Origin: an uncultured Chloroflexota bacterium
GTDB lineage: Bacteria; Chloroflexota; Anaerolineae; Anaerolineales; UBA4823
Direction of reading: 5' to 3'
Assembly (NCBI GenBank): GCA_903871905.1
Contig: CAIQIV010000237.1
Coordinates: 1-43,995 of the forward strand
Length of the DNA stretch: 43,995 nucleotides
The position numbers and the translations under genes are program-made. Under the pieces are notes generated by a model. It ran no database searches, had not been told where the DNA came from, and worked only from the letters and a program-made list of their open reading frames with translations. Numbering within the stretch: the first letter of the stretch is position 1; each line of letters starts with the position of its first letter. This document shows positions 1-12,006 of the stretch, piece after piece.

Positions 1-1
1 C

Positions 2-1198
2 GATGAGGAGTGGGTGGAAGCAGTGCGGGAGCGCATTTTCCAGGTTGTAGCAGAATGGACACAGCGCTGCGCCTACCCGGTGGCCGCGCTGCTCAGCGGC
101 GGGCTGGACTCCTCTTCTGTGACCGCCGTTGCTGCCCGGCTGACCGCCCAGGACAACCGGCGCCTGGTCAGCCTGTCGGCAGTGCTGCCCCCGGACACGC
201 CGCCCGGCCTGAGCGACGAGCGCTGCTTCATAGACACCTTTTGCGGGACGCCAGGGCTGGGAATGGTCTATGTCACCGCCCCGGATGCCGGCCCGTTTGA
301 CCGCCTGGAAGAGCTGGTGCGCGGCGGGGACCAGCCACTGTTCACCTCCCGCCACTACCTGTACACCGCCTTTGCCACTGAAGCACGCCAGCGCGGGGCG
401 CGCCTGATCCTGGAGGGCATCGGTGGCGAGCTGGGACCCAGCAACCCCGGCAACGGCTACATTGCCGAGCGGGCGCGCCGCGGCGACTGGGCCTACGCCT
501 GGAGCGAAACCAGGCGCCAGATGCAGCGCCGCGGCGGCTCGCCATGGCGCAATTTCACCGCCCAGGCCGTCCTGCCCCTGCTGCCAGGCTGGTTGCAGCG
601 CGCCGCGCCGCGCCGCGGCCAGGTGAGCTTAGACCTGCTGGCGCGTACCCCGCTGCACAGGGATTTCGTGCAGCATGCCCTGGGGGAGCGCCTGCCACGT
701 CTGCTGCAGGAGGCAAAACAGAGCATGCGCGAAGCGCCGGACCAGCGCGCCAACCAGCTTAACCTGCAGCGCCTGGCCTGGGGCCTGCAGGGGAGTTCGG
801 GTTTCAACGATTACACGCAGGTGTGCCTGGCCTACCCTTTCTTTGACCGCCGCCTGTGGGCGCTGTGCCGGTCCGCCCCGGGTCACCTGAAAGTGCACAA
901 CGGCTACCGCCGCAGCCTGGTACGCCTGAGTATGGACGGCGTCTTACCCCCAAAGATCCAGTGGCGTCTGGACAAACAGCCCTTTGCCTCCGACTATCAC
1001 CTGCGCTACAACCGCCAGCGCCCGGCGGCGCTGGAACTGCTGCGCTCGATCAGACCGGGCGAGCCCGCCTGGGAGATCCTGGACCTGCCGCGCCTGCTTC
1101 ACCTGGTAGAAAGAAATGCCCAGGATAACCTGGATCAGCAGGCGCTGGGCCTGGTACCAACCGCCGTGTACATCGCTCAATTCTTGAAGCAGTTCTAA
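2..1198 (+). CDS. Lasso peptide cyclase (asparagine synthetase-like, C-terminal part; 5' end outside window)
   Basis: LLSGGLDSSSV PP-loop, EGIGGE, YPFFDRRL and LPPKIQWRLDK motifs of the Asn synthetase family. The frame is open from base 2 (DEEWVEAV...). Two lasso-type precursors lie 1.1 kb downstream. Confidence 0.85.
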   Translation, partial: DEEWVEAVRERIFQVVAEWTQRCAYPVAALLSGGLDSSSVTAVAARLTAQDNRRLVSLSAVLPPDTPPGLSDERCFIDTFCGTPGLGMVYVTAPDAGPFDRLEELVRGGDQPLFTSRHYLYTAFATEARQRGARLILEGIGGELGPSNPGNGYIAERARRGDWAYAWSETRRQMQRRGGSPWRNFTAQAVLPLLPGWLQRAAPRRGQVSLDLLARTPLHRDFVQHALGERLPRLLQEAKQSMREAPDQRANQLNLQRLAWGLQGSSGFNDYTQVCLAYPFFDRRLWALCRSAPGHLKVHNGYRRSLVRLSMDGVLPPKIQWRLDKQPFASDYHLRYNRQRPAALELLRSIRPGEPAWEILDLPRLLHLVERNAQDNLDQQALGLVPTAVYIAQFLKQF

Positions 1199-1226
1199 AC
1201 GCTGGAAACCCTACAGCCTCCCGCCC

Positions 1227-2183
1227 ATGCATCTCACTCCCACGTCCATCTACCTGGAAATTACCGACCTGTGCGCCTCGCGCTGCCCGATGTGTTACAC
1301 CGCCGGGCACCGGATCAGGGGCACGCAGGTGCCCCTGGAACTCCAAGAAACCGTCCAGATGCTCCTGGCCCCTGGACGGGAACTGGGCCTGCAGGGACTG
1401 ACCATCAGCGGCGGCGAGCCCTTGCTGGCGCCGGGGCTGATGGAAACGGTCCGGGCTGCCCTGGACCTGGGGTATTCCATCAACCTGCTAACCTCCTTGT
1501 TTCCCCATTCCCCCAAGAAACTTGAGCCGCTGCTGTCGCTGATGGACAGCCCGCGCCACCAGATCGTCGTATCCTACGACTCGCTCAAGCCGGTCGAGGT
1601 TAAGCGGGTGCGCGGCCGCGGCTCTGGCGAGCTGGTGACCGCCAGCATCCGCTGGCTGGTCAAAAAGCGAGCGGAGCTGGGATCACAGGTACGCCTGTCC
1701 AGCAACACCGTGCTGCAGCCGGCTAACGCCGGATCACTCCTCAACACCCTGTCTTTCTTGCTGGATGAGTTGGGATTTGACCAGGCCATGGTGCAGCAGC
1801 GCCACGACTATACGAAAATCTCCCCAGACGTCATTCTGCCACAGCCAGCCCCACTCCGCTCACCGGCTGAGATCCAGCTCCTGTCCCAGGCGGCGCGCCA
1901 GGTCTTCAGCCTGGCCGAGACCGACCCACGCCTGGCGCCGGTCTGTGACAACCTGGAGGATTGGCTGCGGTTCTTGAACAATCCCCCTACGATCCAGAAA
2001 ACCTGCCAGGCTCTGTCCCATGCCTTTATCGATGCCTTTGGCAATTACCGAGGCTGTATTCACGGCGTCGTGCTGGGCAGCCTGCGGCGCACCCCGCTAG
2101 CAGAATATTTGAACAGTGAACCTTACCTGGTGTTTGCCCGCTTCAGCCAGGGCTGCCACCTGTGCACCCATTCCTGTTCATGA
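1227..2183 (+). CDS. Radical SAM protein with C-terminal SPASM/Twitch-like Cys cluster
   Basis: ITDLCASRCPMC (CxxxCxxC), ISGGEPLL, and C-terminal C-x16-C ... CHLCTHSC. Confidence 0.9.
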   Translation: MHLTPTSIYLEITDLCASRCPMCYTAGHRIRGTQVPLELQETVQMLLAPGRELGLQGLTISGGEPLLAPGLMETVRAALDLGYSINLLTSLFPHSPKKLEPLLSLMDSPRHQIVVSYDSLKPVEVKRVRGRGSGELVTASIRWLVKKRAELGSQVRLSSNTVLQPANAGSLLNTLSFLLDELGFDQAMVQQRHDYTKISPDVILPQPAPLRSPAEIQLLSQAARQVFSLAETDPRLAPVCDNLEDWLRFLNNPPTIQKTCQALSHAFIDAFGNYRGCIHGVVLGSLRRTPLAEYLNSEPYLVFARFSQGCHLCTHSCS

Positions 2184-2244
2184 ATCCAGGGATCTGTCTT
2201 TTCTTTGTATCTTTTCTCATCAACGGATAAAGATAACCAATTTG

Positions 2245-2253
2245 TGATAGAAT
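2245..2253 (+). promoter_or_regulatory. Putative extended -10 promoter for the precursor genes
   Basis: TG-A-TAGAAT (TGnTAnnnT) in an AT-rich gap, 25 nt upstream of the AGGAG RBS of precursor 1. Confidence 0.45.
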
Positions 2254-2288
2254 CAATCATCTTTTAATCCCTTCCTCAGGAGATTGGT

Positions 2289-2465
2289 GTGCAGGAAATG
2301 AAAGATAATCCGAAGAATAATTTTGAGCATCCTTGCCCTTATCATTCCCCGCAATTGAAGGAACTTGGTGTTCTGGTTGATTTGACCCTATCATCGCCTG
2401 TCCTCGACAAGGACACTGACGGAGGCCAACTACCCAACGTTTATACATCAGCACCAGTGTCATAA
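2289..2465 (+). CDS. Lasso peptide precursor A1 (58 aa; not in ORF track)
   Basis: Manual translation from GTG after AGGAG (2278-2282): MQEMKDNPKNNFEHPCPYHSPQLKELGVLVDLTL|SSPVLDKDTDGGQLPNVYTSAPVS*. It has the YxxPxL..G....LT leader, Thr at -2 and Asp8, and is paralogous to A2. Alternative start is ATG 2298. Confidence 0.9.
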   Translation: MQEMKDNPKNNFEHPCPYHSPQLKELGVLVDLTLSSPVLDKDTDGGQLPNVYTSAPVS

Positions 2466-2517
2466 ATTGGATGGACCCATCCCTTCTCATAATTCTATAT
2501 CTCAACAGGAGACGCCC

Positions 2518-2694
2518 ATGAACAGCACACAAATTCACCCAATTAACAGTCGTGAACATCTGCAGTCCTACCATGTACCGCAAGTCAAGGATCTTGGCTC
2601 TCTCGTCGACCTGACAAAATCTGGCCCAATCCCAGTACTTGAATTTGACGGCGGTATCCAGTTTCCAAATGTGTATACCTCAGGACAAGGTTAG
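2518..2694 (+). CDS. Lasso peptide precursor A2 (58 aa)
   Basis: AGGAG RBS before ATG 2518. MNSTQIHPINSREHLQSYHVPQVKDLGSLVDLTK|SGPIPVLEFDGGIQFPNVYTSGQG*, with leader motif, Thr at -2 and Glu8. Confidence 0.9.
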   Translation: MNSTQIHPINSREHLQSYHVPQVKDLGSLVDLTKSGPIPVLEFDGGIQFPNVYTSGQG

Positions 2695-2715
2695 CCTGCC
2701 TGGCGTCACAACTGG

Positions 2716-2755
2716 AAGAGGATTGGATTGGCGCTAATCCAATCCTCTTTTTTTT
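2716..2755 (+). terminator. Intrinsic terminator after the precursor genes
   Basis: AAGAGGATTGGATTG-gcgc-TAATCCAATCCTCTT hairpin followed by a T run. Confidence 0.85.
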
Positions 2756-2793
2756 CAAGTTCCTCTAGGGGAGTAACCTGAAAGCAGGTTCCG

Positions 2794-3786
2794 ATTACCC
2801 ACTCGCCTTTTATCTACCGCATCTTTGGCCTCCGGCTGCACACCGACCATGCTCTGCCCCTGCTGCAGCCCGGAGACCCGCAGACGCCGCCGGACCTGTT
2901 CCTGACCCTGGCGGGCGAAGCCCCTGCCCCGGCTGCCTGGAGTGAGATGACCTGGCAGCCCTATCCTCCAGGACAGCCTGGCAGACCTTTTGTTTTCGTA
3001 GCACTTGACAGCCAAGGAACCTCAGTACACATCACCCTGGGAGACGAGAAGAACTTCTCCGAATTCTATCTCAGCCTGGGCCGCCGCCAGGCTTATATCC
3101 GCTGGCGGAGCGAGGCGGATTCGCCTGAGGATGCCCAGTGGGGCATGTGCCTGCTGCTGATCGACCGGGCATTGCCGCTCTGCCTGCGCCTGGACGGGCG
3201 GCCGGTGCTGCACGGCTGCGCCGTGGACTTCAGCGGCAGGGGGGCGGTGTTCCTGGGCGAATCTGGCGCCGGAAAATCCACCCTGGCTGCCGCCAGTCAT
3301 GCCCTGGGCTTCCCGGTGCTGTCCGAAGAGGCGGTGGTATTCAGCCACCAGGATGGGATCTGGCACATCCAGCCCGGCGCCCCGCTGGTGCGGCTGCGAC
3401 CTGGGGGCCGCCCGGCGCTGGCGGAAGCTGAGCAAGAGCAGCTCAAGGCGCTGCCCTGGATCGAAAAATTCCAGCTCCGCCTGGATAGTGCCCCCAGGGA
3501 GAAAGCTGCTGCGCAGCCAGCGCAGGCCGTCTACCTGCTCCAGCGCCAGCCTGGCCTGCTCACCCCACGGATTGAAGCGCTAAGCCAGGCAGACGGGCTG
3601 AAGATCCTGCTGGAGCAGCGCTACGGGCTGGCAGCCGCCCCGCTGGAACTTGGCGCTCACGAGTTCTCCACCTTCTCCAGCCTGCGCCGCCAGGCAGCCC
3701 TGCGCCTGCTGCACATGCCAGACAACCTGGCCGCCCTGCCGCAGGTCGTGCAGGCTGTCGCCGCCGATCTGCAAATGCTGGCATGA
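2794..3786 (+). CDS. HPr kinase-like serine kinase (lasso-cluster kinase); start uncertain (ATT 2794 or ATG 2947)
   Basis: LHGCAV...FLGESGAGKSTLAA...VLSEE motifs of HPrK-like kinases. The in-frame upstream segment reads YRIFGLRLHTDHALPLL, which resembles the family N-terminus. Confidence 0.8.
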   Translation: MTHSPFIYRIFGLRLHTDHALPLLQPGDPQTPPDLFLTLAGEAPAPAAWSEMTWQPYPPGQPGRPFVFVALDSQGTSVHITLGDEKNFSEFYLSLGRRQAYIRWRSEADSPEDAQWGMCLLLIDRALPLCLRLDGRPVLHGCAVDFSGRGAVFLGESGAGKSTLAAASHALGFPVLSEEAVVFSHQDGIWHIQPGAPLVRLRPGGRPALAEAEQEQLKALPWIEKFQLRLDSAPREKAAAQPAQAVYLLQRQPGLLTPRIEALSQADGLKILLEQRYGLAAAPLELGAHEFSTFSSLRRQAALRLLHMPDNLAALPQVVQAVAADLQMLA

Positions 3787-4733
3787 GCGCCCCCCCTTCG
3801 CTCTCCGTGGTTACCACCACTCACAACGGCGAGCGCTTCCTGCCCACGGCGCTGGCAAGCATCCTGGACCAGTCTTTTACCGATTTTGAATACATCCTGG
3901 TGGATGATGGCTCAACCGATGGCACGCCTGATATCCTGGTAGACTACGCCAGCCGGGACGCACGCATCCATCTCATTCGGAATGATCAACCCCTGGGACC
4001 AGGAGGGGCGCTCAACCAGGCCCTGCAGGCTGCTCGCGGCCGGTATGTCGCCAACCTGGACCACGATGACCTGGCCCGCCCGGCGCGCCTGGAAAAGCAG
4101 GCTGCTTACCTGGACTGGCATCCGGCGGTGGGGGTGCTCGGCGCCTGGGCGGAGGTGATCTCCGCCGCGGACAAAGTGGTGAAGACCTGGAAATACCCCG
4201 TCCGCCCGGCGCTGGCGCACTGGGGGATGTATTTCTCGGCGACGGTGCTGCACTCGGCTGTCATGGCGCGTCGGGAGCTGCTGCTGCAGGCAGGCGGCTA
4301 TTCAGCCTACCACCGCTTTACCGTCGATTACCAGCTCTGGCTGCGCCTGCTGTGGCAGACTCAGTTTGCCAACCTGCCGCACTGCCTGGCCGCTTACCGC
4401 ATCAGCCCGGAGCAGGCCTCCATGCGCCAGGCTGATCTGCAGCACGGGCAGGTGATCCTGGCCCAGCAGGCCGCCCTGGGTCGCCTGTTGGGGAGAAGGC
4501 CGGATTTACAGGCCGTGCTGGACCTCACCCTGGCCCGCTCCGGGCGCCGGCTGCGGGACGCCGCCGCGGTGCGCAGGGCAGCCCACCTGCTGCAGCGCGC
4601 CGCCCTGGCTTACCGCCGGGCAGCCAACCTGTCCCCCGGTGACCAGCAGCGCCTGGCGCTCGATCTTGCCCGCCGCATCTCCCGCCTCAAGCCAGAAAAA
4701 TCCGCTTTGCTTGCCGGTCAGAGTGGTGCTTAA
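3783..4733 (+). CDS. Glycosyltransferase family 2
   Basis: SVVTTTHNGERFL, VDDGSTDGT and LDHDD (DxD) motifs. The start overlaps the kinase stop (ATGA). Confidence 0.9.
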   Translation: MSAPPSLSVVTTTHNGERFLPTALASILDQSFTDFEYILVDDGSTDGTPDILVDYASRDARIHLIRNDQPLGPGGALNQALQAARGRYVANLDHDDLARPARLEKQAAYLDWHPAVGVLGAWAEVISAADKVVKTWKYPVRPALAHWGMYFSATVLHSAVMARRELLLQAGGYSAYHRFTVDYQLWLRLLWQTQFANLPHCLAAYRISPEQASMRQADLQHGQVILAQQAALGRLLGRRPDLQAVLDLTLARSGRRLRDAAAVRRAAHLLQRAALAYRRAANLSPGDQQRLALDLARRISRLKPEKSALLAGQSGA

Positions 4734-4764: not shown

Positions 4765-5403
4765 TCATCCTAAACTGACGCTCTCCCGCCCGGCCAGGAA
4801 CGCCCGGCGGTTGAGTTCGACATACTTGGGCGGCACGCGCTCGGTGATCACCTTCAGCCAGGTGTCCTGCGTCGCCACCGGCAGCGACCAGCGCTCCGCG
4901 CTCATCAGGTTGCCGCTCTCCACTACCCGCGACAACGCCCCCAACAGCACCACGTTGGCTACCTTGGGGTTTCCCAGCTCCGCAGCGATCGCCCCGCCGT
5001 TCACATACGCCGTGTGCGGGGTCACCTGGGCCAGCACGCCGCGCAGCGTATCGTCGTCCGGGTAAGCCTGCCCACCCGAGGTCACGGTGACCGGCTCAAT
5101 CGCTTCCATGTTCACCAGCGCCAGCGCCCCGGGGCGCAGGTACTGCAGGTAGCGCAGTGCTTCCACCTTCTCAAAAGCCAGCAGCACATCCGCCTCGCCG
5201 GCGCCGACCAGCGGAGAGTACACCACCCGTCCCCAGCGCACATAGCTGGTCACGCTGCCGCCGCGCTGCGACATACCGTGCACCTCGGCCTGCTTGGCCT
5301 GGTAGCCGGAGGCCAGCCCCACGTTGACCAGCACATCACTGGCCAGGATCGTCCCCTGGCCGCCAACCCCGCTCAATAGAAAGTTCAGAATATCCTTGGA
5401 CAT
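4765..5403 (-). CDS. iorB: Indolepyruvate ferredoxin oxidoreductase beta subunit
   Basis: MSKDILNFLLSGVGGQGTILAS...EVHGMSQRGGSV, directly downstream of iorA. Start reassigned to ATG 5403. Confidence 0.92.
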   Translation of the reverse strand: MSKDILNFLLSGVGGQGTILASDVLVNVGLASGYQAKQAEVHGMSQRGGSVTSYVRWGRVVYSPLVGAGEADVLLAFEKVEALRYLQYLRPGALALVNMEAIEPVTVTSGGQAYPDDDTLRGVLAQVTPHTAYVNGGAIAAELGNPKVANVVLLGALSRVVESGNLMSAERWSLPVATQDTWLKVITERVPPKYVELNRRAFLAGRESVSLG

Positions 5404-5414
5404 CTTGTTCCCTC

Positions 5415-7223
5415 TCAATTCACCGGCGCCATTTGCTCTTCTGGCCGGAAGGTGATCGCATCCCGCGGGCAGATCTGGGCGCAGATCTCGCAGCCCGTGC
5501 ACATGCTGGCGTCGATCAGCGCCTTGGGCCGCTGGTAGCGCTCGTCCAGCTCTTCGCTCTTGAGGATCGCCGGGCAGCCGATGCGGAAGCACAGGGCGCA
5601 GCCGTTGCACTTTTCGTCGATCACATCCAGCGGCACCCAGCGCTTGCGAGCATCGGGCAGCAGGGCGCACGGCTCCACCGTGATCAGCACCGAGGGCTCA
5701 TCCAGCTTGAGGAACTCTTTGAGCGTTTTTTCGATTTCTTCTACCTCAAAAGCCGGGACAGATTTGACGTGCTTGATCCCCAGGGCGCGCACCAGCGGCT
5801 CCAGCTGGATCTCGGTGGTCATCTGCCCCTGCAGCGTGCGTCCATTGACCGGGTTGTCCTGGTGACCGGTCATCCCGGTCACGCGATTATCCATGATCAC
5901 CGTGACCACCGGACTCTGGTTATACACCGTGTTGACCAGCGCCGGGATGCCGGTATGGAAAAAGGTCGAGTCGCCGATCACCGCCACGAAGCGCTCGGGG
6001 CTGCCGCTGCGCGCCGCACCGTGCGCCACGCCAATGCCCGCCCCCATGCAGCCGGTGGTGTGGATCGCCGACAGCGGCGGCACCAGGCCCAGGGTGTAGC
6101 AGCCGATGTCGCCGTTGACCGGCACCTTGAGCTTGTGCAGCACGTAGAAGGTGCTTCGGTGCGGGCAGCCAGGGCACAGCACCGGAGGCCGGCTGGGCAG
6201 TGGCGCCAGTTCAAACTCCGGCAGGGGCACATGCAGTTCCGCCGGCAGCAGCCCGGCGCGGATGGCGCTCTCGCGCACCACGCGTTGGTCCAGCTCCCCA
6301 ATCAGGGGAAAAATGCTCTTGCCTTCCACCGAGATGCCCATCAGCTTAACCGCTTCTTCGATAAACGGATCCAGCTCCTCCACCACGATCAACCGCTCCA
6401 CCTGGCTGGCAAAATGCTCGATCAGCTTCCTGGGAAGCGGCCAGGTCATCCCCAGGTGCAGGATGGAGGCGTCGGGGAAGACCTCTTTTGCATACTGGTA
6501 CGCCACACCGGCGGTAATGATCCCCAAGGATTTATCCCCCATCTCGATGCGGTTGTAGGGGAAGGTTTCCGCCATTTCAGCAATATCCAGCATGCGCTGC
6601 TCGATCACCGGGTGGCGCTTGATGGCATTGCCGGGGACCATGACGTACTTCTCCGGGTTGCGTGGGAACTTGCTCTGCGCCGCGCAGGGCGGCGGGTCCA
6701 CCCGCTCCCCCAGCTCCACGGCGCTGGTTGAATGGCAGATGCGGGTGGTCATGCGCAGCAGCACCGGGGTATCAAAGCGCTCGCTCAATCCAAAAGCAGC
6801 AATCGTCAGGTCCTTGGCTTCCTGGCTGTCGCTGGGCTCAAGGCACGGGACACGGGCAAACTTGGCAAAGGTACGATTATCCTGCTCATTCTGGCTGGAA
6901 TGCATCTGCGGGTCATCGGCAGTGACGATCACCAGGCCAGCCTCGATGCCGGTCATGGCCACGTACATAAAGGCATCCGCAGCCACGTTCAGGCCAACAT
7001 GCTTCATGGAGGAAAAGGCGCGCTTGCCAGCGTAAGCCGCGCCAATGGCCACATCGACAGCCACCTTCTCGTTCGGCGCCCACTCGGCGTAGACATTAGG
7101 GAAACGGGCAAAGTTTTCCAGAATCTCCGTGCTGGGTGTGCCGGGATAAGCCGAAGCCAGCGCTACCCCTGCCTCCCAGGCGCCGCGTGCCACGGCCTCG
7201 TTGCCGGAGAGCATACGAATCAT
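5415..7223 (-). CDS. iorA: Indolepyruvate ferredoxin oxidoreductase alpha subunit
   Basis: LSGNEAVARGA, YPGTPSTEI, LCPGCPHR, GDIGCY and GDSTF (TPP) motifs, plus a C-terminal 2x[4Fe-4S] ferredoxin. Confidence 0.95.
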   Translation of the reverse strand: MIRMLSGNEAVARGAWEAGVALASAYPGTPSTEILENFARFPNVYAEWAPNEKVAVDVAIGAAYAGKRAFSSMKHVGLNVAADAFMYVAMTGIEAGLVIVTADDPQMHSSQNEQDNRTFAKFARVPCLEPSDSQEAKDLTIAAFGLSERFDTPVLLRMTTRICHSTSAVELGERVDPPPCAAQSKFPRNPEKYVMVPGNAIKRHPVIEQRMLDIAEMAETFPYNRIEMGDKSLGIITAGVAYQYAKEVFPDASILHLGMTWPLPRKLIEHFASQVERLIVVEELDPFIEEAVKLMGISVEGKSIFPLIGELDQRVVRESAIRAGLLPAELHVPLPEFELAPLPSRPPVLCPGCPHRSTFYVLHKLKVPVNGDIGCYTLGLVPPLSAIHTTGCMGAGIGVAHGAARSGSPERFVAVIGDSTFFHTGIPALVNTVYNQSPVVTVIMDNRVTGMTGHQDNPVNGRTLQGQMTTEIQLEPLVRALGIKHVKSVPAFEVEEIEKTLKEFLKLDEPSVLITVEPCALLPDARKRWVPLDVIDEKCNGCALCFRIGCPAILKSEELDERYQRPKALIDASMCTGCEICAQICPRDAITFRPEEQMAPVN

Positions 7224-7331
7224 GCAACACCTCCAAACAGAAATGGGAATAGTCCTACCCCCTGATTATATGCGCTCCCGCCCTGCACTTTCCAGTGCCG
7301 TTTGTACTGTTTCTTCCCTGATATTTTGGAA

Positions 7332-7373
7332 TAAAAAGGGAGATTTTGCAGAAAAACCACGGCAAAATCTCCC
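7332..7373 (-). terminator. Intrinsic terminator after the lyase gene
   Basis: GGGAGATTTTGC/GCAAAATCTCCC 12-bp inverted repeat with a U run on the minus strand. Confidence 0.75.
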
Positions 7374-7396
7374 CCAAGAAGACAGTCCGAACCGGA

Positions 7397-8839
7397 TCAG
7401 ATGGCGCCCAGATCCGCCTCGAAGGCTTTGATCAGATCGGCGCCCCAGTTGTCCAATGCTTCCAGGCGCCCGATGAAGAAGCGCAGCACCGGCGGCTCCT
7501 GCGTAAAGCGCAGGCCTTTCACCAGGTCCTTATGATTGTAGAGCCAGGCGATGCGGTCCGTAGCATATTCGATCTGCGACATGGTGTAGGTGCGCCGCGG
7601 CACCGCCAGGCGCGCCAGCTCCATATCCGATGCTACCTCATTGCCGTTAGCATCCCTGTCCATGGAAATGGTGCCGCGCTCCATCGAGCGCACCCCGGAC
7701 ACCAGGTAAATCGCCGCCGCCAGCGCGCCCGCCGGGTACTGCAGCGATGGGATGTGCGGCAGGAAGAGCTTGGCATCCACGTGGCAGGCCAGGCCGCCTG
7801 CCGGGGTGACTACCGGCACGCCTCGCTCGCCCAGGCGGCGCACAAAGTACTCGACAAACTCGGCGCCGCTGGAGGCGGTGTTTTCATCGCACATCTCGCG
7901 CACGCCCACCGCCATGGCTTCCACCTCCTTGGTAGACATGCCGCCGTAGGTGGTAAAACCCTCGTACACCGGCAGCCAGGGCAGGATGCGGTCGTAGACC
8001 TCGCGCTGGTTGGTGGCGATCATCCCGCCGCGCACCGCCGTGCTCTTGCGCCCGGACAGGTAGAGGATATCAACCAGGCTCATCATTTCCTGGTAAATCT
8101 CTTTGATCGAAGCCTTGGCAAATTCCGGCTCGCGCTGCTTGACCAGGAAGGCATTTTCGGAGATCAGGCTGCCGTCAAAAACCAATGGAATGTGGTTTGC
8201 CTCAGCGATCTTCTTCACATCCCGCAGGTTTTGGATGGAGAACGGCTGGCCGCCGATCAGGTTGGTGGTGGCTTCCATGCGAATGTAAGCCACATTTTCT
8301 GCCCCATGTTCGGCGATCGCTGCCTGCAGCTTTCCCAGGTCCATATCGCCTTTGAAGCGGTTGGTGCTCTGGGTGTTGAAGGCCTCGTCCCCGCATAATT
8401 CCAGCACCTTGCCGCCTTGCAGCTCCACGTGCGCCTTACTGGTGGTAAAGTGGTAGTTCATGATCACCACCATACCCGGCTTGACAAACGTCTTGGCCAG
8501 CAGGTGCTCGGCTGCGCGTCCCTGGTGTACCGGCATCACATATTGGAAACCCAGCACTTCCTGTACGGTGTCCGCCAGGCGGTAGAAGCTCTCCGAGCCG
8601 GCATAGGCGTCATCCGCCTGCATCATAGCTGCCAGCTGGTTGTCGCTCATGGCATTGGTGCCGCTGTCGGTGAGCATATCCAGGAATACATCCCGGCTGC
8701 GCAGGGAGAAGGTGTTGTATCCTGCCTGCTCCAGGGCTTTCAGGCGTCCCTGTGCGGTTTGCAGGTAGGTTTTTTGCACAATTTTTACCTTGTGCATTTC
8801 GACCGGGATGGTCTTTCCGTTGGTAAGTTTGATCTGCAT
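7397..8839 (-). CDS. Tryptophanase (TnaA)/tyrosine phenol-lyase (Tpl) family PLP beta-eliminating lyase
   Basis: DMLTDSGTNAMS, DDAYAGS, HQGRAAE, YEGFTTYGGM, RLAVPRR and LRFF motifs. The specificity residues look Tpl-like. Confidence 0.9.
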   Translation of the reverse strand: MQIKLTNGKTIPVEMHKVKIVQKTYLQTAQGRLKALEQAGYNTFSLRSRDVFLDMLTDSGTNAMSDNQLAAMMQADDAYAGSESFYRLADTVQEVLGFQYVMPVHQGRAAEHLLAKTFVKPGMVVIMNYHFTTSKAHVELQGGKVLELCGDEAFNTQSTNRFKGDMDLGKLQAAIAEHGAENVAYIRMEATTNLIGGQPFSIQNLRDVKKIAEANHIPLVFDGSLISENAFLVKQREPEFAKASIKEIYQEMMSLVDILYLSGRKSTAVRGGMIATNQREVYDRILPWLPVYEGFTTYGGMSTKEVEAMAVGVREMCDENTASSGAEFVEYFVRRLGERGVPVVTPAGGLACHVDAKLFLPHIPSLQYPAGALAAAIYLVSGVRSMERGTISMDRDANGNEVASDMELARLAVPRRTYTMSQIEYATDRIAWLYNHKDLVKGLRFTQEPPVLRFFIGRLEALDNWGADLIKAFEADLGAI

Positions 8840-8894
8840 GTTCGGCTCCTTTGGCTAAGTATTTCCTGGCGCGCCAGGGTATTCTCTGGATAAA

Positions 8895-8958
8895 CCTGCA
8901 TCTTGTAAAGTTATAAAAATATCCCGGCCAGCTTTCAGGCCGGGATATGTGATGCAGG
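8895..8958 (-). promoter_or_regulatory. Structured 5' leader with terminator-like hairpin (candidate attenuator)
   Basis: 11-bp stem ATATCCCGGCC/GGCCGGGATAT plus a U run on minus, nested in an outer CCTGCATC/GATGCAGG pair. It lies between the promoter and the lyase start. Confidence 0.55.
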
Positions 8959-8992
8959 CATTAAGTTGTGATTAAGATTTAATTAAGCGGGG

Positions 8993-9021
8993 ATTTTACT
9001 CACAATCATAACCTGTGTCAA
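8993..9021 (-). promoter_or_regulatory. Sigma70-type promoter of the lyase gene
   Basis: TTGACA-17 nt-TAAAAT on the minus strand. Confidence 0.75.
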
Positions 9022-9083
9022 GATTTTGACAAAAGTTTCTCCTATCCGAACCAGATAAAATCCATTATCATTCACATGTTGAA

Positions 9084-10793
9084 ATGATCAGGAGCTGCCC
9101 AGTAGGAAAATATCTTCTATACGGCCTGGGGTTATTTGCATTTCTCCTGGCTGTCCTGGCCATCTTCATCCCTCAGCCTACCACTCCCTGGCTGCTGCGG
9201 CTGGCATTGGTTGCAGCTGCGGGAATGGCTTTACTGTGGCTGATGTGGAAAATTCACCGCACTCAGCAGCAGCTTCAAAAATCGGAGGAACTGGCCCTCG
9301 CTCAACACCAGGCCAATCTTGATATTGCCGGGCAGGTTGAACGCTACCACTCCATCTTTTCTGCCGCGCCGATTGGCATCTACCACACCTCAAAAACCGG
9401 CAAGATATTGGAGGCTAACCCGGCTTTGCTGGAAATGCTGGGTTACTCCACCCTGGATGAACTGAACCAGAGTAGTGTGTATGACTTCTTCGTCCACCCT
9501 CAGGACCGGGAAAAGGAGCTCCGCCTGCTGGAGCAGCAGGGTGTCCTGTATAACTATGAGTTACAGCTCTTGCGCAGTGACCGGCAGCCGATCTGGGTTA
9601 GCGATAATATCCGGGCAATAGAAAAACACGGCAGTGAGGAAGTGTATTATGCCGGAAGCCTGCTGGATATCACCCCTCGCAAGCTGGCGGAACAGCGGCT
9701 GCAGGAGTTATACGATCAATTGGAGGAGAGGGTCTTAAAGCGCACCGAGGAACTGCGCCGCGCCCTGCAGCGCCTGGATGCCCTGCGCCAGACCAACCTG
9801 GAATTGGCCAGCGACCTGAACCTGGATACACTGCTGGAGGCGATAGTTTTCCGCGCCATCGACCTGGTTGGCGCTACTGCTAGCTCGTTGTACTTGTACC
9901 GCCCGGAGGGGAATTTCCTGGAGTTGACGGTCAGCCAGGGCAGCAATCCTCTGCCGGTAGGCTCGATTCTGCATTATGGGGAAGGGCTGTCCGGAAAAGT
10001 GTGGGAGACACGTCTGCCAATGATCATCCCAGACTATTCCACCTGGAAAGACCGGGCACGGCAGTTCGACTCGTTTGCCGCGCGCAGCGTGGTCAGCGTT
10101 CCCATCTTATGGGGCGAGAATTTGCTGGGTGTGATCAACCTTTCATCCTCACAGCCCGACCAATTTACCAAAGATACTGCGGACCTGCTGACCATGTTCG
10201 CCAGCCAGGCAGCTGTAGCGCTGCAGAATGCCCATTTGTATACCGAGACGCGCAGATCCCAGGAACGGCTGGATTTCCTGGCGCACCACGATCCCCTCAC
10301 CGGGCTGCCAAACCGGATTATGTTTAGCAAGCTGCTCGAAGGCGCCTTTGAGCTGGGCCGGCAGCAGCCGGGCTACCACTTTGCCCTGCTGTATATCGAC
10401 CTGGACCATTTCAAGGATATCAACGACACCCTGGGACATCCAACCGGCGACCAGCTGTTGGTGGCGGCTGCCAGGCGCTTCGAGCACTGCCTGCGCGACT
10501 GCGATGCAATCGCCCGCATGGGAGGGGACGAGTTTGCCATCCTGGTGTGTGAAGTACAGGATGAAGCCATGGTGCATGCCATTGCCCACCGCCTGCAGGC
10601 CGAATTTTCCACCCGTTTTTCCATCCACGACCGTCGGGTACAGGTAAGCCTGAGCATGGGGATCTCTCTCAGCAGCCCTGCTTATACGCATCCAGATGAG
10701 ATGGTACGCGATGCAGATATCGCCTTGTACCAGGCCAAGGAGCAGGGCCGTGCCCGGCATGTGGTTTTTGAAAGGGAACCAGATGCAAGATAA
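9084..10793 (+). CDS. Membrane-anchored PAS-GAF diguanylate cyclase
   Basis: Two N-terminal TM helices, PAS and GAF domains, HDPLTGLPNR, DLDHFKDINDTLGH and an intact RMGGDEF. Confidence 0.9.
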   Translation: MIRSCPVGKYLLYGLGLFAFLLAVLAIFIPQPTTPWLLRLALVAAAGMALLWLMWKIHRTQQQLQKSEELALAQHQANLDIAGQVERYHSIFSAAPIGIYHTSKTGKILEANPALLEMLGYSTLDELNQSSVYDFFVHPQDREKELRLLEQQGVLYNYELQLLRSDRQPIWVSDNIRAIEKHGSEEVYYAGSLLDITPRKLAEQRLQELYDQLEERVLKRTEELRRALQRLDALRQTNLELASDLNLDTLLEAIVFRAIDLVGATASSLYLYRPEGNFLELTVSQGSNPLPVGSILHYGEGLSGKVWETRLPMIIPDYSTWKDRARQFDSFAARSVVSVPILWGENLLGVINLSSSQPDQFTKDTADLLTMFASQAAVALQNAHLYTETRRSQERLDFLAHHDPLTGLPNRIMFSKLLEGAFELGRQQPGYHFALLYIDLDHFKDINDTLGHPTGDQLLVAAARRFEHCLRDCDAIARMGGDEFAILVCEVQDEAMVHAIAHRLQAEFSTRFSIHDRRVQVSLSMGISLSSPAYTHPDEMVRDADIALYQAKEQGRARHVVFEREPDAR

Positions 10794-12006
10794 AACTACC
10801 AGCCCAATTAATCGAACGCTGGCTTCTCTGAACCAGTCGGTGCTGCTGGTTTCATTCCCCTTCTTCATCCTGGGTCTGCTGCTGCCGGTTTATGGGAAGG
10901 CTATTGGCGCCGATGTGGTCGAGATCGGCCTGTTCTTCTCTGCCTTCTCACTGATGACGGTGCTGCTGCGCCCTGTGGTGGGCTGGGCGCTGGACCGGCT
11001 TGGCCGCCGGCCGTTCATCCTGGCCGGCCTGGGCGGTTATGCCCTGACCATGCTGAGTTTCGCCTTTATTGACCAGGTATGGGGGGTAATTGCTGCACGC
11101 ATTATCCAGGGCATCTCGTCCTCGTTTTTCTGGTTGGCGGTGACCGCCATGACCGCCGACCTGGCGCCCAGCTCAGAGCGCGGGCGTTCCTTTGGCAGCA
11201 TCACCGAGTCCTCCAGCCGTGGTTCAATCATCGGCGCATTTGTTGGCTTTACCCTGCTCAATGTCCCATTCACCCTGGAATTGGGCTCGTACAGGCTGAG
11301 CAGCTGGAGCCTGCTCTTCATTGTGTACGGTTCAGTCAGCCTGGCCGCCATGCTGATGGCGCTGCGCCGCCTTCCTGAGACACATCCCGCAGTGACCACC
11401 AGGAAGCAGCAGCCCCTGGTCTGGTCGCGGGCCTGGCTGCTTCTACTGCTGGTGACCCTGGTGACGGGCGCCTCATGGGCAATGGTCTCCCCCATCATGA
11501 TCATCTTCCTTCAGGATAAGCTGCAGGTCGGACTGGATACGCTCTCCTGGGCATTCCTGCCCTCCGGCCTGGTGTGGGCATTGCTGCCCTCTCGCCTGGG
11601 ACGCCTGGCTGACCGTTTCGGCCGCAAGCCGCTGATGGTGCTGGGACTGGTAGCGGCCTCGGCCAGTTCCTTCCTGGTCCCTTACCTGGGGGGCGTGGTA
11701 GCCCTTGCGTTAGTGTGGGCTTTCCAGGCGCTGTGCTACGCCGCCGGGGATCCAGCTGAGCAGGCTTTGGTGTCCGACCTGACCCACTCCGACCAGCGCG
11801 GCCGGGCTTACGGGTTGTACGTGATGTGCGCTGATCTGGGAGCAACCATCGGTCCCCTTGGCGGAGCATACCTGTACCAACAAATCGGCGTTCGGGCCCC
11901 GTTCTTCGCCAACGCTGCCCTGCTGATCGCCTGCGCCCTGGTGCTGGCCCTGTTCTTGAAAGAGCCAGCCCGTCCATTCTTGGCACCCATTGGAGGTACA
12001 GCATGA
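10783..12006 (+). CDS. MFS transporter
   Basis: GWALDRLGRR and GRLADRFGRK motif A repeats, ~12 hydrophobic segments. Start set at ATG 10783. Confidence 0.88.
   Translation: MQDKTTSPINRTLASLNQSVLLVSFPFFILGLLLPVYGKAIGADVVEIGLFFSAFSLMTVLLRPVVGWALDRLGRRPFILAGLGGYALTMLSFAFIDQVWGVIAARIIQGISSSFFWLAVTAMTADLAPSSERGRSFGSITESSSRGSIIGAFVGFTLLNVPFTLELGSYRLSSWSLLFIVYGSVSLAAMLMALRRLPETHPAVTTRKQQPLVWSRAWLLLLLVTLVTGASWAMVSPIMIIFLQDKLQVGLDTLSWAFLPSGLVWALLPSRLGRLADRFGRKPLMVLGLVAASASSFLVPYLGGVVALALVWAFQALCYAAGDPAEQALVSDLTHSDQRGRAYGLYVMCADLGATIGPLGGAYLYQQIGVRAPFFANAALLIACALVLALFLKEPARPFLAPIGGTA

What the first reader, a model, noticed from the sequence alone, without database searches (positions are those of the whole stretch)
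2289..2465. Hidden second lasso precursor missed by the ORF track
Manual translation gives a 58-aa ORF with a GTG start and AGGAG RBS. Its layout (34-aa leader + 24-aa core) is identical to the precursor at 2518-2694. The leaders align (YHSPQLKELGVLVDLTL vs YHVPQVKDLGSLVDLTK), so this is a diverged tandem duplication that should give two products.
Basis: seen in the sequence. Interest (0 to 1): 0.85.

Follow-up and report, generated by a model that had tools for sequence, protein, structure and literature searches.

The report
Uncalled second lasso-peptide precursor gene
A short gene that gene callers appear to have skipped sits beside a lasso-peptide precursor gene and is its diverged twin, so this cluster probably makes two related peptides, which is a known arrangement for this class.

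Summary
Window 2289-2465 (+) is an open 58-codon frame with a GTG start and AGGAG six bases upstream. That is the same ribosome-site spacing as the neighbouring precursor at 2518-2694.

The two peptides are 52% identical (BLASTP E 6e-17), yet their DNA shows no detectable similarity (best blastn E 0.68). Differences pile up at third codon positions (identity 0.65/0.67/0.37, chi-square p 0.0015; dN/dS 0.18). This is a protein-coding signature.

An A1-type peptide with 17 of 24 core residues identical exists in another public metagenome (P0001).

The leader carries YxxPxL at -17..-12 and Thr at -2. The gene lies between a lasso cyclase plus radical-SAM gene and an HPr-kinase-like plus GT2 gene pair. 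A strong terminator follows the second precursor.

I read it as a genuine second precursor (confidence about 0.78). Expression and the mature product are untested.

Several precursors in one lasso cluster is known, for example the caulosegnins. It is a new member of a known kind, of modest interest.

Odd points of the cluster:
- No B2 peptidase lies nearby.
- The only invariant acidic core residue is Asp10, outside the usual 7-9.
- Only A1 ends in Ser.

The parts
2278..2282 (+). Shine-Dalgarno AGGAG for A1, 6 nt before the GTG
   Evidence: Read. The spacing is the same as AGGAG 2507-2511 before the ATG of A2.
2289..2465 (+). A1: 58-codon precursor ORF (GTG start, TAA stop included)
   Evidence: The N-terminus aligns with the Met of P0001 and of A2, which favours GTG 2289 over the ATG at 2298.
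2289..2390 (+). Predicted A1 leader, residues 1-34. YHSPQL is at residues 18-23 (-17..-12) and Thr33 is at -2.
   Evidence: Sequence. The positional rule is from PMC10368454. There is a sub-threshold match to NF033521 lasso_leader_L3 at residues 18-34 (12.7 bits, cut-off 19).
2391..2462 (+). Predicted A1 core, 24 residues. It has Ser1, acidic residues at 6, 8 and 10, an invariant Asp10-Gly-Gly, an invariant Pro/Asn/Tyr/Ser in the tail, and a C-terminal Ser.
   Evidence: Alignment. The cleavage site is inferred, not shown.
2507..2511 (+). Shine-Dalgarno AGGAG for A2
   Evidence: Read
2518..2694 (+). A2: the already recognised 58-codon precursor, paralogue of A1
   Evidence: It is held as called protein P0002.
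2714..2755 (+). Intrinsic terminator after A2: 17-pair hairpin and U run
   Evidence: (-27.5 kcal/mol, z -3.76, 1 of 200 shuffles as good). No significant structure lies between A1 and A2 (z -0.02).
2..1198 (+). Lasso cyclase C (Asn-synthase homologue), with its 5' end cut by the contig start
   Evidence: PF00733 at E 1.9e-24. NF033535 lasso isopeptide cyclase at E 1.2e-45, below its full-length cut-off. Its N-terminal part and a PqqD/B1 gene are on contig C704, which overlaps the window start by 579 nt at 95.3%.
1227..2183 (+). Radical SAM / SPASM-like protein directly upstream of A1
   Evidence: PF04055 at E 7.8e-12. SPASM at E 4.6e-4, just under its cut-off.
2947..3786 (+). HPr-kinase-like P-loop protein, a candidate peptide kinase
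   Evidence: Weak matches only: TIGR04352 at E 3.5e-8 and PF07475 at E 0.0024, both below cut-off. It is 32% identical (E 2e-17) to the kinase-like gene next to a lasso precursor in G311.
3783..4733 (+). Family-2 glycosyltransferase; its start overlaps the kinase stop by 4 nt
   Evidence: PF00535 at E 3.2e-36; coordinates

Best explanation
Window 2289-2465 is a real protein-coding gene, A1, the first of two tandem paralogous lasso-peptide precursor genes.

Inferred mechanism:
1. A1 and A2 are transcribed as one unit that ends at the strong terminator at 2714-2755.
2. A1 is translated from GTG 2289, using AGGAG at 2278-2282.
3. Its leader is held by the PqqD-type B1 protein through YxxPxL at -17..-12 and Thr at -2.
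4. The leader is removed after Leu34.
5. The Asn-synthase-like cyclase joins the Ser35 amine to an Asp side chain of the core (Asp8 or Asp10), giving a lariat.
6. The neighbouring radical-SAM, kinase-like and GT2 enzymes may decorate the peptide. A1 alone offers a C-terminal Ser, the site used by the paeninodin-type kinases.

Shown: the ORF, its ribosome site, its paralogy, selection on the protein frame, conservation of an A1-type peptide elsewhere, and the gene context. Inferred: transcription, translation, the cleavage site, the ring residue, every tailoring step, and the existence of a mature product.
For: ORF, start and ribosome site:
- The ORF, the GTG and the AGGAG-N6 spacing match A2.

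Paralogy and coding signature:
- A1 and A2 are 52% identical, E 6e-17.
- Among all frame pairs, the sense frame gives the best score (E 7e-17). The DNA itself has no significant similarity (best E 0.68).
- Identity by codon position is 0.65/0.67/0.37 over 57 codons, chi-square p 0.0015. pN is 0.35, pS is 0.73 and dN/dS is 0.18.
- The antisense frames that share the wobble position carry 4 stops each.

Relatives:
- The exhaustive search of 1.84 billion representatives gave 4 proteins at E <= 0.001. They are P0001 (58 aa, E 4.6e-13), A2 itself, P0003 (56 aa), and one 1219-aa protein matched over 25 residues, which I did not examine.
- P0001 shares 17 of 24 core residues with A1, against 12 of 23 for A2.

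Leader:
- The leader fits the published YxxPxL (-17..-12) and Thr(-2) rulers at once (PMC10368454, passages read).
- All four family members match NF033521 at the same place, at E 0.02-0.17.

Context:
- The neighbours are a lasso cyclase, a radical-SAM gene, a kinase-like gene and GT2.
- B1 lies on the overlapping contig C704. Its nearest solved relative is TbiB1, 5v1u, E 2.2e-10.
- A terminator follows A2 and none lies between the two genes.

Complex prediction, B1 plus A1:
- The verdict is weak support: score 0.52, best of 3 controls 0.02.
- The mark was reached by 58 of 80 solved complexes and by 2 of 110 mismatched pairs. At 0.60 or under it was reached by only 7 of those 80 and by both mismatches that passed.
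- The runs agree in at least 93% of their contacts, and the partner's pLDDT is at least 53.
- Like complexes are solved, so the pass may come from memory.

Precedent:
- The caulosegnin cluster has three precursors processed by one enzyme set (PMC13352647, passages read).
- Contig C363 of this genome has three tandem precursors.
Against: - There are no expression data.
- No orthologous locus could be read. A-family profile searches found no true relative in 400 genomes of the class or in 136 other genomes of the family. The one other-genome hit of the class search, G311 at E 3e-4, is a leader-only match to a different lasso precursor. The two family hits, at E 3e-4 and 4e-3, contain stops.
- The radical-SAM gene has no match in 400 genomes of the phylum sample or in 136 family genomes.
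- The contigs that hold P0001 and P0003 could not be fetched, so their gene context is unknown.
- The lasso-leader HMM match is below its cut-off (12.7 against 19 bits).
- No B2 leader peptidase is in the cluster. PF13471 matches only contigs C140 and C369, each beside its own lasso genes.
- The acidic residue at core position 8 is not conserved: Tyr in P0001 and Ile in P0003. The only invariant acceptor, Asp10, lies outside the known 7-9 range (PMC9266682).
- The C-terminal Ser of A1 is Pro in P0001.
- dN/dS is a property of the pair. It cannot say that the A1 branch alone stayed under selection.
Confidence: 0.78

Rival explanations
1. A1 is a decaying or silent duplicate. The frame is still open, but the peptide is not made in useful amounts, or the enzymes do not accept it, so the cluster gives one product, from A2.
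For: - GTG start.
- A1 was not found among called proteins.
- No RNA evidence is available.
- The core is only 12/23 identical to A2.
- dN/dS is measured on the pair only.
Against: - The ORF is intact and has the same AGGAG-N6 spacing as A2.
- All leader recognition residues are kept.
- An A1-type core is kept at 17/24 in P0001 from another metagenome, so that type has persisted under selection.
- No terminator lies between A1 and A2.
Confidence: 0.12
2. A1 and A2 are real precursors, but the product is not a classical threaded lasso. One possibility is a branched-cyclic or radical-SAM cross-linked peptide. The reasons would be that the cluster lacks its own B2 peptidase and that the conserved acceptor sits at position 10.
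For: - No PF13471 match lies in the window or on C704.
- A radical-SAM/SPASM gene lies directly upstream of A1.
- Asp10 is the only invariant acidic residue.
- Pseudomycoidin made without its tailoring genes is not threaded (section heading of PMC6993621).
Against: - The cyclase, B1 and the leader motifs are all of the lasso type.
- A1 and A2 both carry an acidic residue at position 8.
- A B2 from another locus, or from an unassembled part, could act in trans. The genome is 92.6% complete, in 865 contigs.
Confidence: 0.08
3. The frame is open by chance, or the real gene is the 108-codon ORF on the opposite strand (2257-2583).
For: - The region is AT-rich (GC 0.46), where open frames are commoner.
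- The minus-strand ORF is longer.
Against: - Paralogy at E 6e-17 exists in the sense frame only, among open frames.
- The most variable sites fall on the second codon positions of the 108-codon ORF (worked out from the coordinates).
- That ORF has no Pfam match at E <= 1 and no paralogue in the A2 region.
Confidence: 0.02

Closest known systems
Caulosegnins I-III of Caulobacter segnis: three precursor genes in one lasso cluster, all processed by the same enzymes (PMC13352647, passages read)
   Same: Several diverged precursor genes lie side by side and share one leader type and one enzyme set. The cores differ, so several products are expected.
   Different: Here there are two copies. The cluster adds radical-SAM, kinase-like and GT2 genes and has no B2 nearby. 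No product has been observed.
Paeninodin / pseudomycoidin-type phosphorylated lasso peptides (PMC9266682 and PMC6993621, passages and sections read)
   Same: An HPr-kinase-like gene sits next to the precursor genes. A1 ends in Ser, the residue those kinases phosphorylate on the precursor. A sugar-adding step is plausible, as in pseudomycoidin.
   Different: - The kinase match here is weak and below family cut-offs.
- A2 and P0001 do not end in Ser.
- The glycosyl step would be by a GT2, not a nucleotidyltransferase homologue.
- Those clusters carry B2 and a transporter.
- Lasso kinases can also act on an internal Ser, such as BsfK on Ser3 (PMC10368454).
TbiB1-leader recognition in Thermobaculum terrenum (PDB 5v1u/5v1v; named; that 5v1v holds the bound leader is recalled)
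   Same: The B1 on contig C704 is the nearest sequence relative of TbiB1 among solved structures (E 2.2e-10). The A1 leader has the YxxPxL motif at the positions that B1 proteins read.
   Different: Binding here is only predicted, with weak support.

Membership tests
Lasso-peptide precursor (A gene) | Short ORF encoded beside a lasso cyclase (Asn-synthase homologue) | tested here: met
   The cyclase is at 2-1198: PF00733 at E 1.9e-24, NF033535 at E 1.2e-45. A1 lies 1.1 kb downstream on the same strand.
Lasso-peptide precursor (A gene) | Leader with YxxPxL at -17..-12 and Thr at -2 | tested here: met
   YHSPQL is at residues 18-23 and Thr33 is two residues before Ser35. Both rulers give the same cleavage site (rule from PMC10368454).
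Lasso-peptide precursor (A gene) | Match to a curated lasso leader model (NF033521) above its cut-off | tested here: not met
   12.7 bits, E 0.1, cut-off 19. A2 scores 13.6, P0001 14.9 and P0003 12.0, all at the same place. The model has 20 positions, so a miss is weak evidence.
Lasso-peptide precursor (A gene) | Asp or Glu at core position 7-9 as ring acceptor | tested here: inconclusive
   A1 has Asp8 and A2 has Glu8. P0001 has Tyr8 and P0003 has Ile8, with no other acidic residue at 7-9. Asp10 is the only invariant one (rule from PMC9266682).
Lasso-peptide precursor (A gene) | RRE/B1 and B2 leader peptidase in the same cluster | tested here: inconclusive
   B1 is present on contig C704, which overlaps the window start by 579 nt at 95.3%. 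B2 (PF13471) is found only on C140 and C369.
Lasso-peptide precursor (A gene) | A threaded macrolactam product | not testable with these tools
   Needs expression and MS/NMR.
Phosphorylated (paeninodin-type) lasso peptides | HPr-kinase-family gene in the cluster | tested here: inconclusive
   TIGR04352 at E 3.5e-8 (32.9 bits, cut-off 200), PF07475 at E 0.0024 (cut-off 33.3), PDB HprK at E 0.024. The His-Lys-Asp-Asp motif was not checked, because no reference kinase sequence was at hand.
Phosphorylated (paeninodin-type) lasso peptides | C-terminal Ser on the precursor | tested here: met
   This is met for A1 only, which ends in Ser58. A2 ends in Gly, P0001 in Pro and P0003 in Asn.

The most novel reading that the evidence does not exclude
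The A1/A2/P0001/P0003 family may be cyclised at its only invariant acidic residue, Asp10 of the Asp-Gly-Gly motif. That would give a 10-residue macrolactam, larger than the 7-9 of every natural lasso peptide described in the papers read here.

The two paralogues might also be decorated differently. Only A1 ends in Ser for the kinase and GT2, with a radical-SAM step on top. One B2-less cluster would then make two distinct, heavily tailored peptides.
Probability: 0.15. Interest if true: 0.6.

Novelty: new member of a known kind. Interest (0 to 1): 0.3.

Why it matters
For annotation, it shows a real RiPP precursor that ordinary gene calling skipped. Likely reasons are its small size, its GTG start, and a GC content 16-21 points below that of its neighbours. 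Any product prediction for this cluster that uses only A2 would miss half of the output.

For natural-product work, A1 is the copy that carries the C-terminal Ser expected by lasso kinases. It may therefore be the main substrate of the tailoring genes.

The idea itself, several precursors in one lasso cluster, is established. The value lies in this cluster, not in a new principle.

Tried and rejected
Orthologous loci:
- The search for related loci found no relative in genome contigs or in metagenome contigs. One search failed because the alignment had no stretch conserved enough.
- The genome search with A1 alone against 40 relatives gave only chance-level hits outside the own genome (E 0.09 or worse).
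- The profile searches and the radical-SAM searches found nothing useful.

Expression:
- No RNA holder was listed.

Reads:
- Contigs of run X2, from the same study as the likely source, cover 2369-3012 with no differences.
- Relatives in X3, X4 and X6 (three other studies) cover 8-2189 and 2814-4684 with many differences. For example, 274 other letters lie over 8-2189 in X4. They do not cover 2339-2672.
- One X6 contig joins 2189 to 2857 with 967 letters in between instead of 667.
- I could not read those letters, so whether the relative holds two or three precursors there is unknown. The uncovered part is not used as evidence.

Other checks:
- Rfam on 2000-3000 gave only a sub-threshold chance hit.
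- The promoter scan found no sigma-70-like site on the + strand in 1100-3100. By eye, TGATAGAAT at 2245-2253 looks like an extended -10 without a good -35. I did not rely on it.
- The ESM Atlas gave leads only: top scores 0.88-0.89 to unnamed clusters, and 0.84 to a cluster with PF24178 Subterisin on 72% of its members.
- The ATG at 2298 was rejected as the start. It lies 15 nt from the AGGAG, and P0001 and A2 align from the GTG position.
- Supplementary files of the papers were not opened. The precursor alignments in the supplements of PMC10368454 and PMC6993621 might bear on the kinase-site question.
- The third homologous-protein search and the second Atlas call were not used.

Full report
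The observation.
Window 2289-2465 on the + strand is an open frame of 58 codons with a GTG start and a TAA stop. AGGAG lies at 2278-2282, six bases before the GTG. The neighbouring ORF 2518-2694 is also 58 codons and has AGGAG at 2507-2511, six bases before its ATG.

Is it more than chance?
- The two peptides align over 56 residues with 29 identities, E 6e-17 for the single comparison.
- At the DNA level the two regions show nothing (best blastn E 0.68).
- In the codon alignment, identity is 0.65, 0.67 and 0.37 at codon positions 1, 2 and 3 over 57 codons. The chi-square p for that heterogeneity is 0.0015.
- Nei-Gojobori counting gives pN 0.35, pS 0.73 (saturated) and dN/dS 0.18.
- Two sequences that kept their protein while their synonymous sites randomised have been coding for most of the time since they split.

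The opposite strand.
- A longer ORF of 108 codons lies on the opposite strand (2257-2583). It has no Pfam match and no paralogue over the A2 region. The variable sites fall on its second codon positions (worked out from the coordinates).
- The antisense frames that do share the wobble position, and that therefore echo the similarity (E 8e-12), carry 4 stops each.

Relatives elsewhere.
- The exhaustive search of 1.84 billion representative proteins returned 4 proteins at E <= 0.001. They are P0001 (58 aa, E 4.6e-13), A2 itself (P0002), P0003 (56 aa, E 2.9e-4), and a 1219-aa protein matched over 25 residues, which I did not follow.
- P0001 and P0003 are each called 'hypothetical protein' by JGI. 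They sit on 1 and 2 contigs respectively.
- P0001 is of the A1 type. It shares 17 of 24 core residues with A1, including the first seven. It shares 10 of 23 with A2.
- P0003 has a tail more like that of A2.
- The A1 frame is therefore conserved in at least one other organism. Its Met aligns with the GTG of A1, which supports that start.
- I could not fetch the contigs that hold these proteins, so their neighbours are unknown.
- No true relative turned up in 400 genomes of the class, in 136 other genomes of the family, or with A1 alone in 40 relatives.
- The radical-SAM neighbour has no match in 400 genomes of the phylum sample or in 136 family genomes.
- The cluster is rare among reference genomes.

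Was it missed by gene callers?
- A2 is in the protein collection as a window protein. A1 is not among the 3 proteins at E <= 0.01 (7 candidates) of the profile search.
The single-sequence word search returned nothing at all, not even P0001, so that blank is unreliable.
- The claim is likely, but not proven.
- A plausible cause is composition. A1 and A2 have GC 0.46 and 0.47, against 0.62-0.67 for the four flanking genes.

Context.
- The window is the start of contig C237, so the first gene is cut.
- That gene is an Asn-synthase homologue whose best named match is the lasso isopeptide cyclase.
- Contig C704 overlaps the window start by 579 nt at 95.3% without gaps. It carries the N-terminal part of the cyclase, a PqqD-family gene just before it, and a ferritin-like gene before that.
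- The PqqD protein matches lasso PqqD chaperone models (E 2e-13, below the cut-off). Its nearest solved relative is TbiB1 (E 2.2e-10).
- The overlap is not identical, so C704 may be a strain variant. I use it as a proxy for the upstream genes.
- Downstream of the cyclase come a radical-SAM/SPASM-like gene, A1, A2, a strong terminator (17-pair hairpin plus U run, z -3.76), an HPr-kinase-like gene with weak matches only, and a GT2 gene.
- There is no significant structure between A1 and A2, so they are probably one transcript.
- The transglutaminase-like B2 peptidase family matches only contigs C140 and C369, each next to other lasso genes. This cluster has no B2 of its own in what is assembled.

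Layout of the peptide.
- Published work places the B1-recognised YxxPxL motif at -17 to -12 and a Thr at -2 (PMC10368454, passages read).
- In A1, YHSPQL is at residues 18-23 and Thr is at 33. Both rulers put the cut after residue 34.
- The ring acceptor is less clear. The rule is Asp or Glu at core position 7-9 (PMC9266682).
- A1 has Asp8 and A2 has Glu8. P0001 has Tyr8 and P0003 has Ile8. The only acidic residue invariant in all four is Asp10, followed by an invariant Gly-Gly.
- Two readings remain. Either the acceptor differs between members, or the family closes a 10-residue ring. The second has been obtained by engineering fusilassin (PMC13352647), but it is not among the natural ring sizes given in the papers I read.

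Tailoring.
- Lasso kinases of the paeninodin type phosphorylate the C-terminal Ser of the precursor, a residue described as extremely conserved in such clusters (PMC9266682).
- Pseudomycoidin is then glycosylated (PMC6993621).
- A1 ends in Ser. A2 ends in Gly, P0001 in Pro and P0003 in Asn.
- Another lasso kinase acts on Ser3 (PMC10368454), and Ser54 is invariant in this family. The target here is therefore open.

Binding test.
- The complex prediction of B1 (from C704) with A1 gave weak support: score 0.52 against 0.02 for the best of 3 controls.
- The mark was reached by 58 of 80 solved complexes and by 2 of 110 mismatches. At 0.60 or under it was reached by only 7 of those 80 and by both mismatches that passed.
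- The runs agree in at least 93% of their contacts, and the partner's pLDDT is at least 53.
- B1-leader complexes are solved, so this may be likeness from memory.

Comparison with what is known.
- Several precursors in one lasso cluster is established. Three caulosegnin precursors are processed by one enzyme set (PMC13352647).
- Contig C363 of this same genome has three tandem precursors with a canonical first residue and Asp8 before its own cyclase.
- The finding is thus a new member of a known kind.
- The unusual points belong to the cluster rather than to the hidden ORF. They are a radical-SAM gene inside a lasso cluster, no B2, kinase-like plus GT2 genes, the invariant Asp10, and a precursor region that is far more diverged than its flanks.
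- On that last point, relatives in other lake metagenomes align over the flanking genes but not over the precursor region. One contig holds 967 letters there in place of 667.

Verdict.
- A1 is a real second precursor gene: confidence 0.78.
- Silent or unprocessed duplicate: 0.12.
- Real precursor of a product that is not a classical lasso: 0.08.
- Chance ORF or antisense gene: 0.02.
- Interest is 0.3.

Noticed in passing
L003 955-1077, 1473-1611, 1825-1946 (own genome contig C363): A second lasso locus in the same genome has three tandem precursor ORFs just before its own Asn-synthase-like cyclase (L003 2070 onward). All three have YHxPxL, Thr at -2, Gly or Ala at core position 1 and Asp at position 8. 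Two of the three reach the NF033521 cut-off.
   Followed up: partly
own genome contig C704 1-1586 (L015) and window 1-579: C704 overlaps the window start by 579 nt at 95.3% with no gaps. It carries the missing N-terminal part of the cyclase and a PqqD/B1 gene, preceded by a ferritin-like gene. The assembly probably broke here on strain variation; contamination is 8%.
   Followed up: partly
window 1-4733 and contigs C140, C369: No B2 leader peptidase (PF13471) lies in this cluster. The genome's only two matches are on C140 and C369, both at contig ends beside other lasso genes. The last 44 bases of C369 open another precursor-like ORF after B2.
   Followed up: partly
window 2391-2462 and 2620-2691: The only acidic core residue invariant in A1, A2, P0001 and P0003 is Asp10, followed by an invariant Gly-Gly. 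Position 8 is Asp, Glu, Tyr and Ile respectively. This hints at an unusual ring size or a variable acceptor.
   Followed up: partly
window 1227-2183: A 318-aa radical-SAM protein with a SPASM-like end sits between the lasso cyclase and A1. It has no match at E <= 1e-15 in 400 genomes of the phylum sample, and none at E <= 1e-10 in 136 family genomes. Its role is unknown.
   Followed up: partly
window 2184-2760: The precursor region has GC 0.35-0.47, against 0.62-0.67 in the flanking genes. In relatives from three other studies the flanks align at 80% or more but this region does not. One contig holds 967 letters in place of 667, which is room for a third precursor.
   Followed up: partly
L023 689-2591 (G311:C127): Another genome of the same class has the gene order B1, B2, a 58-aa precursor and an HPr-kinase-like gene. 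If Thr is at -2, its core would begin with Gln, an unusual first residue. Its kinase-like protein is 32% identical to the window's.
   Followed up: no
window 3783-3786: The GT2 start codon overlaps the stop of the kinase-like gene by 4 nt, which suggests translational coupling of the two tailoring genes.
   Followed up: no
window 4765-12006: The genes after the cluster look ordinary and unrelated. On the minus strand are two subunits of a 2-oxoacid:ferredoxin oxidoreductase and a beta-eliminating lyase. On the plus strand are a PAS-GAF-GGDEF protein and an MFS transporter.
   Followed up: no
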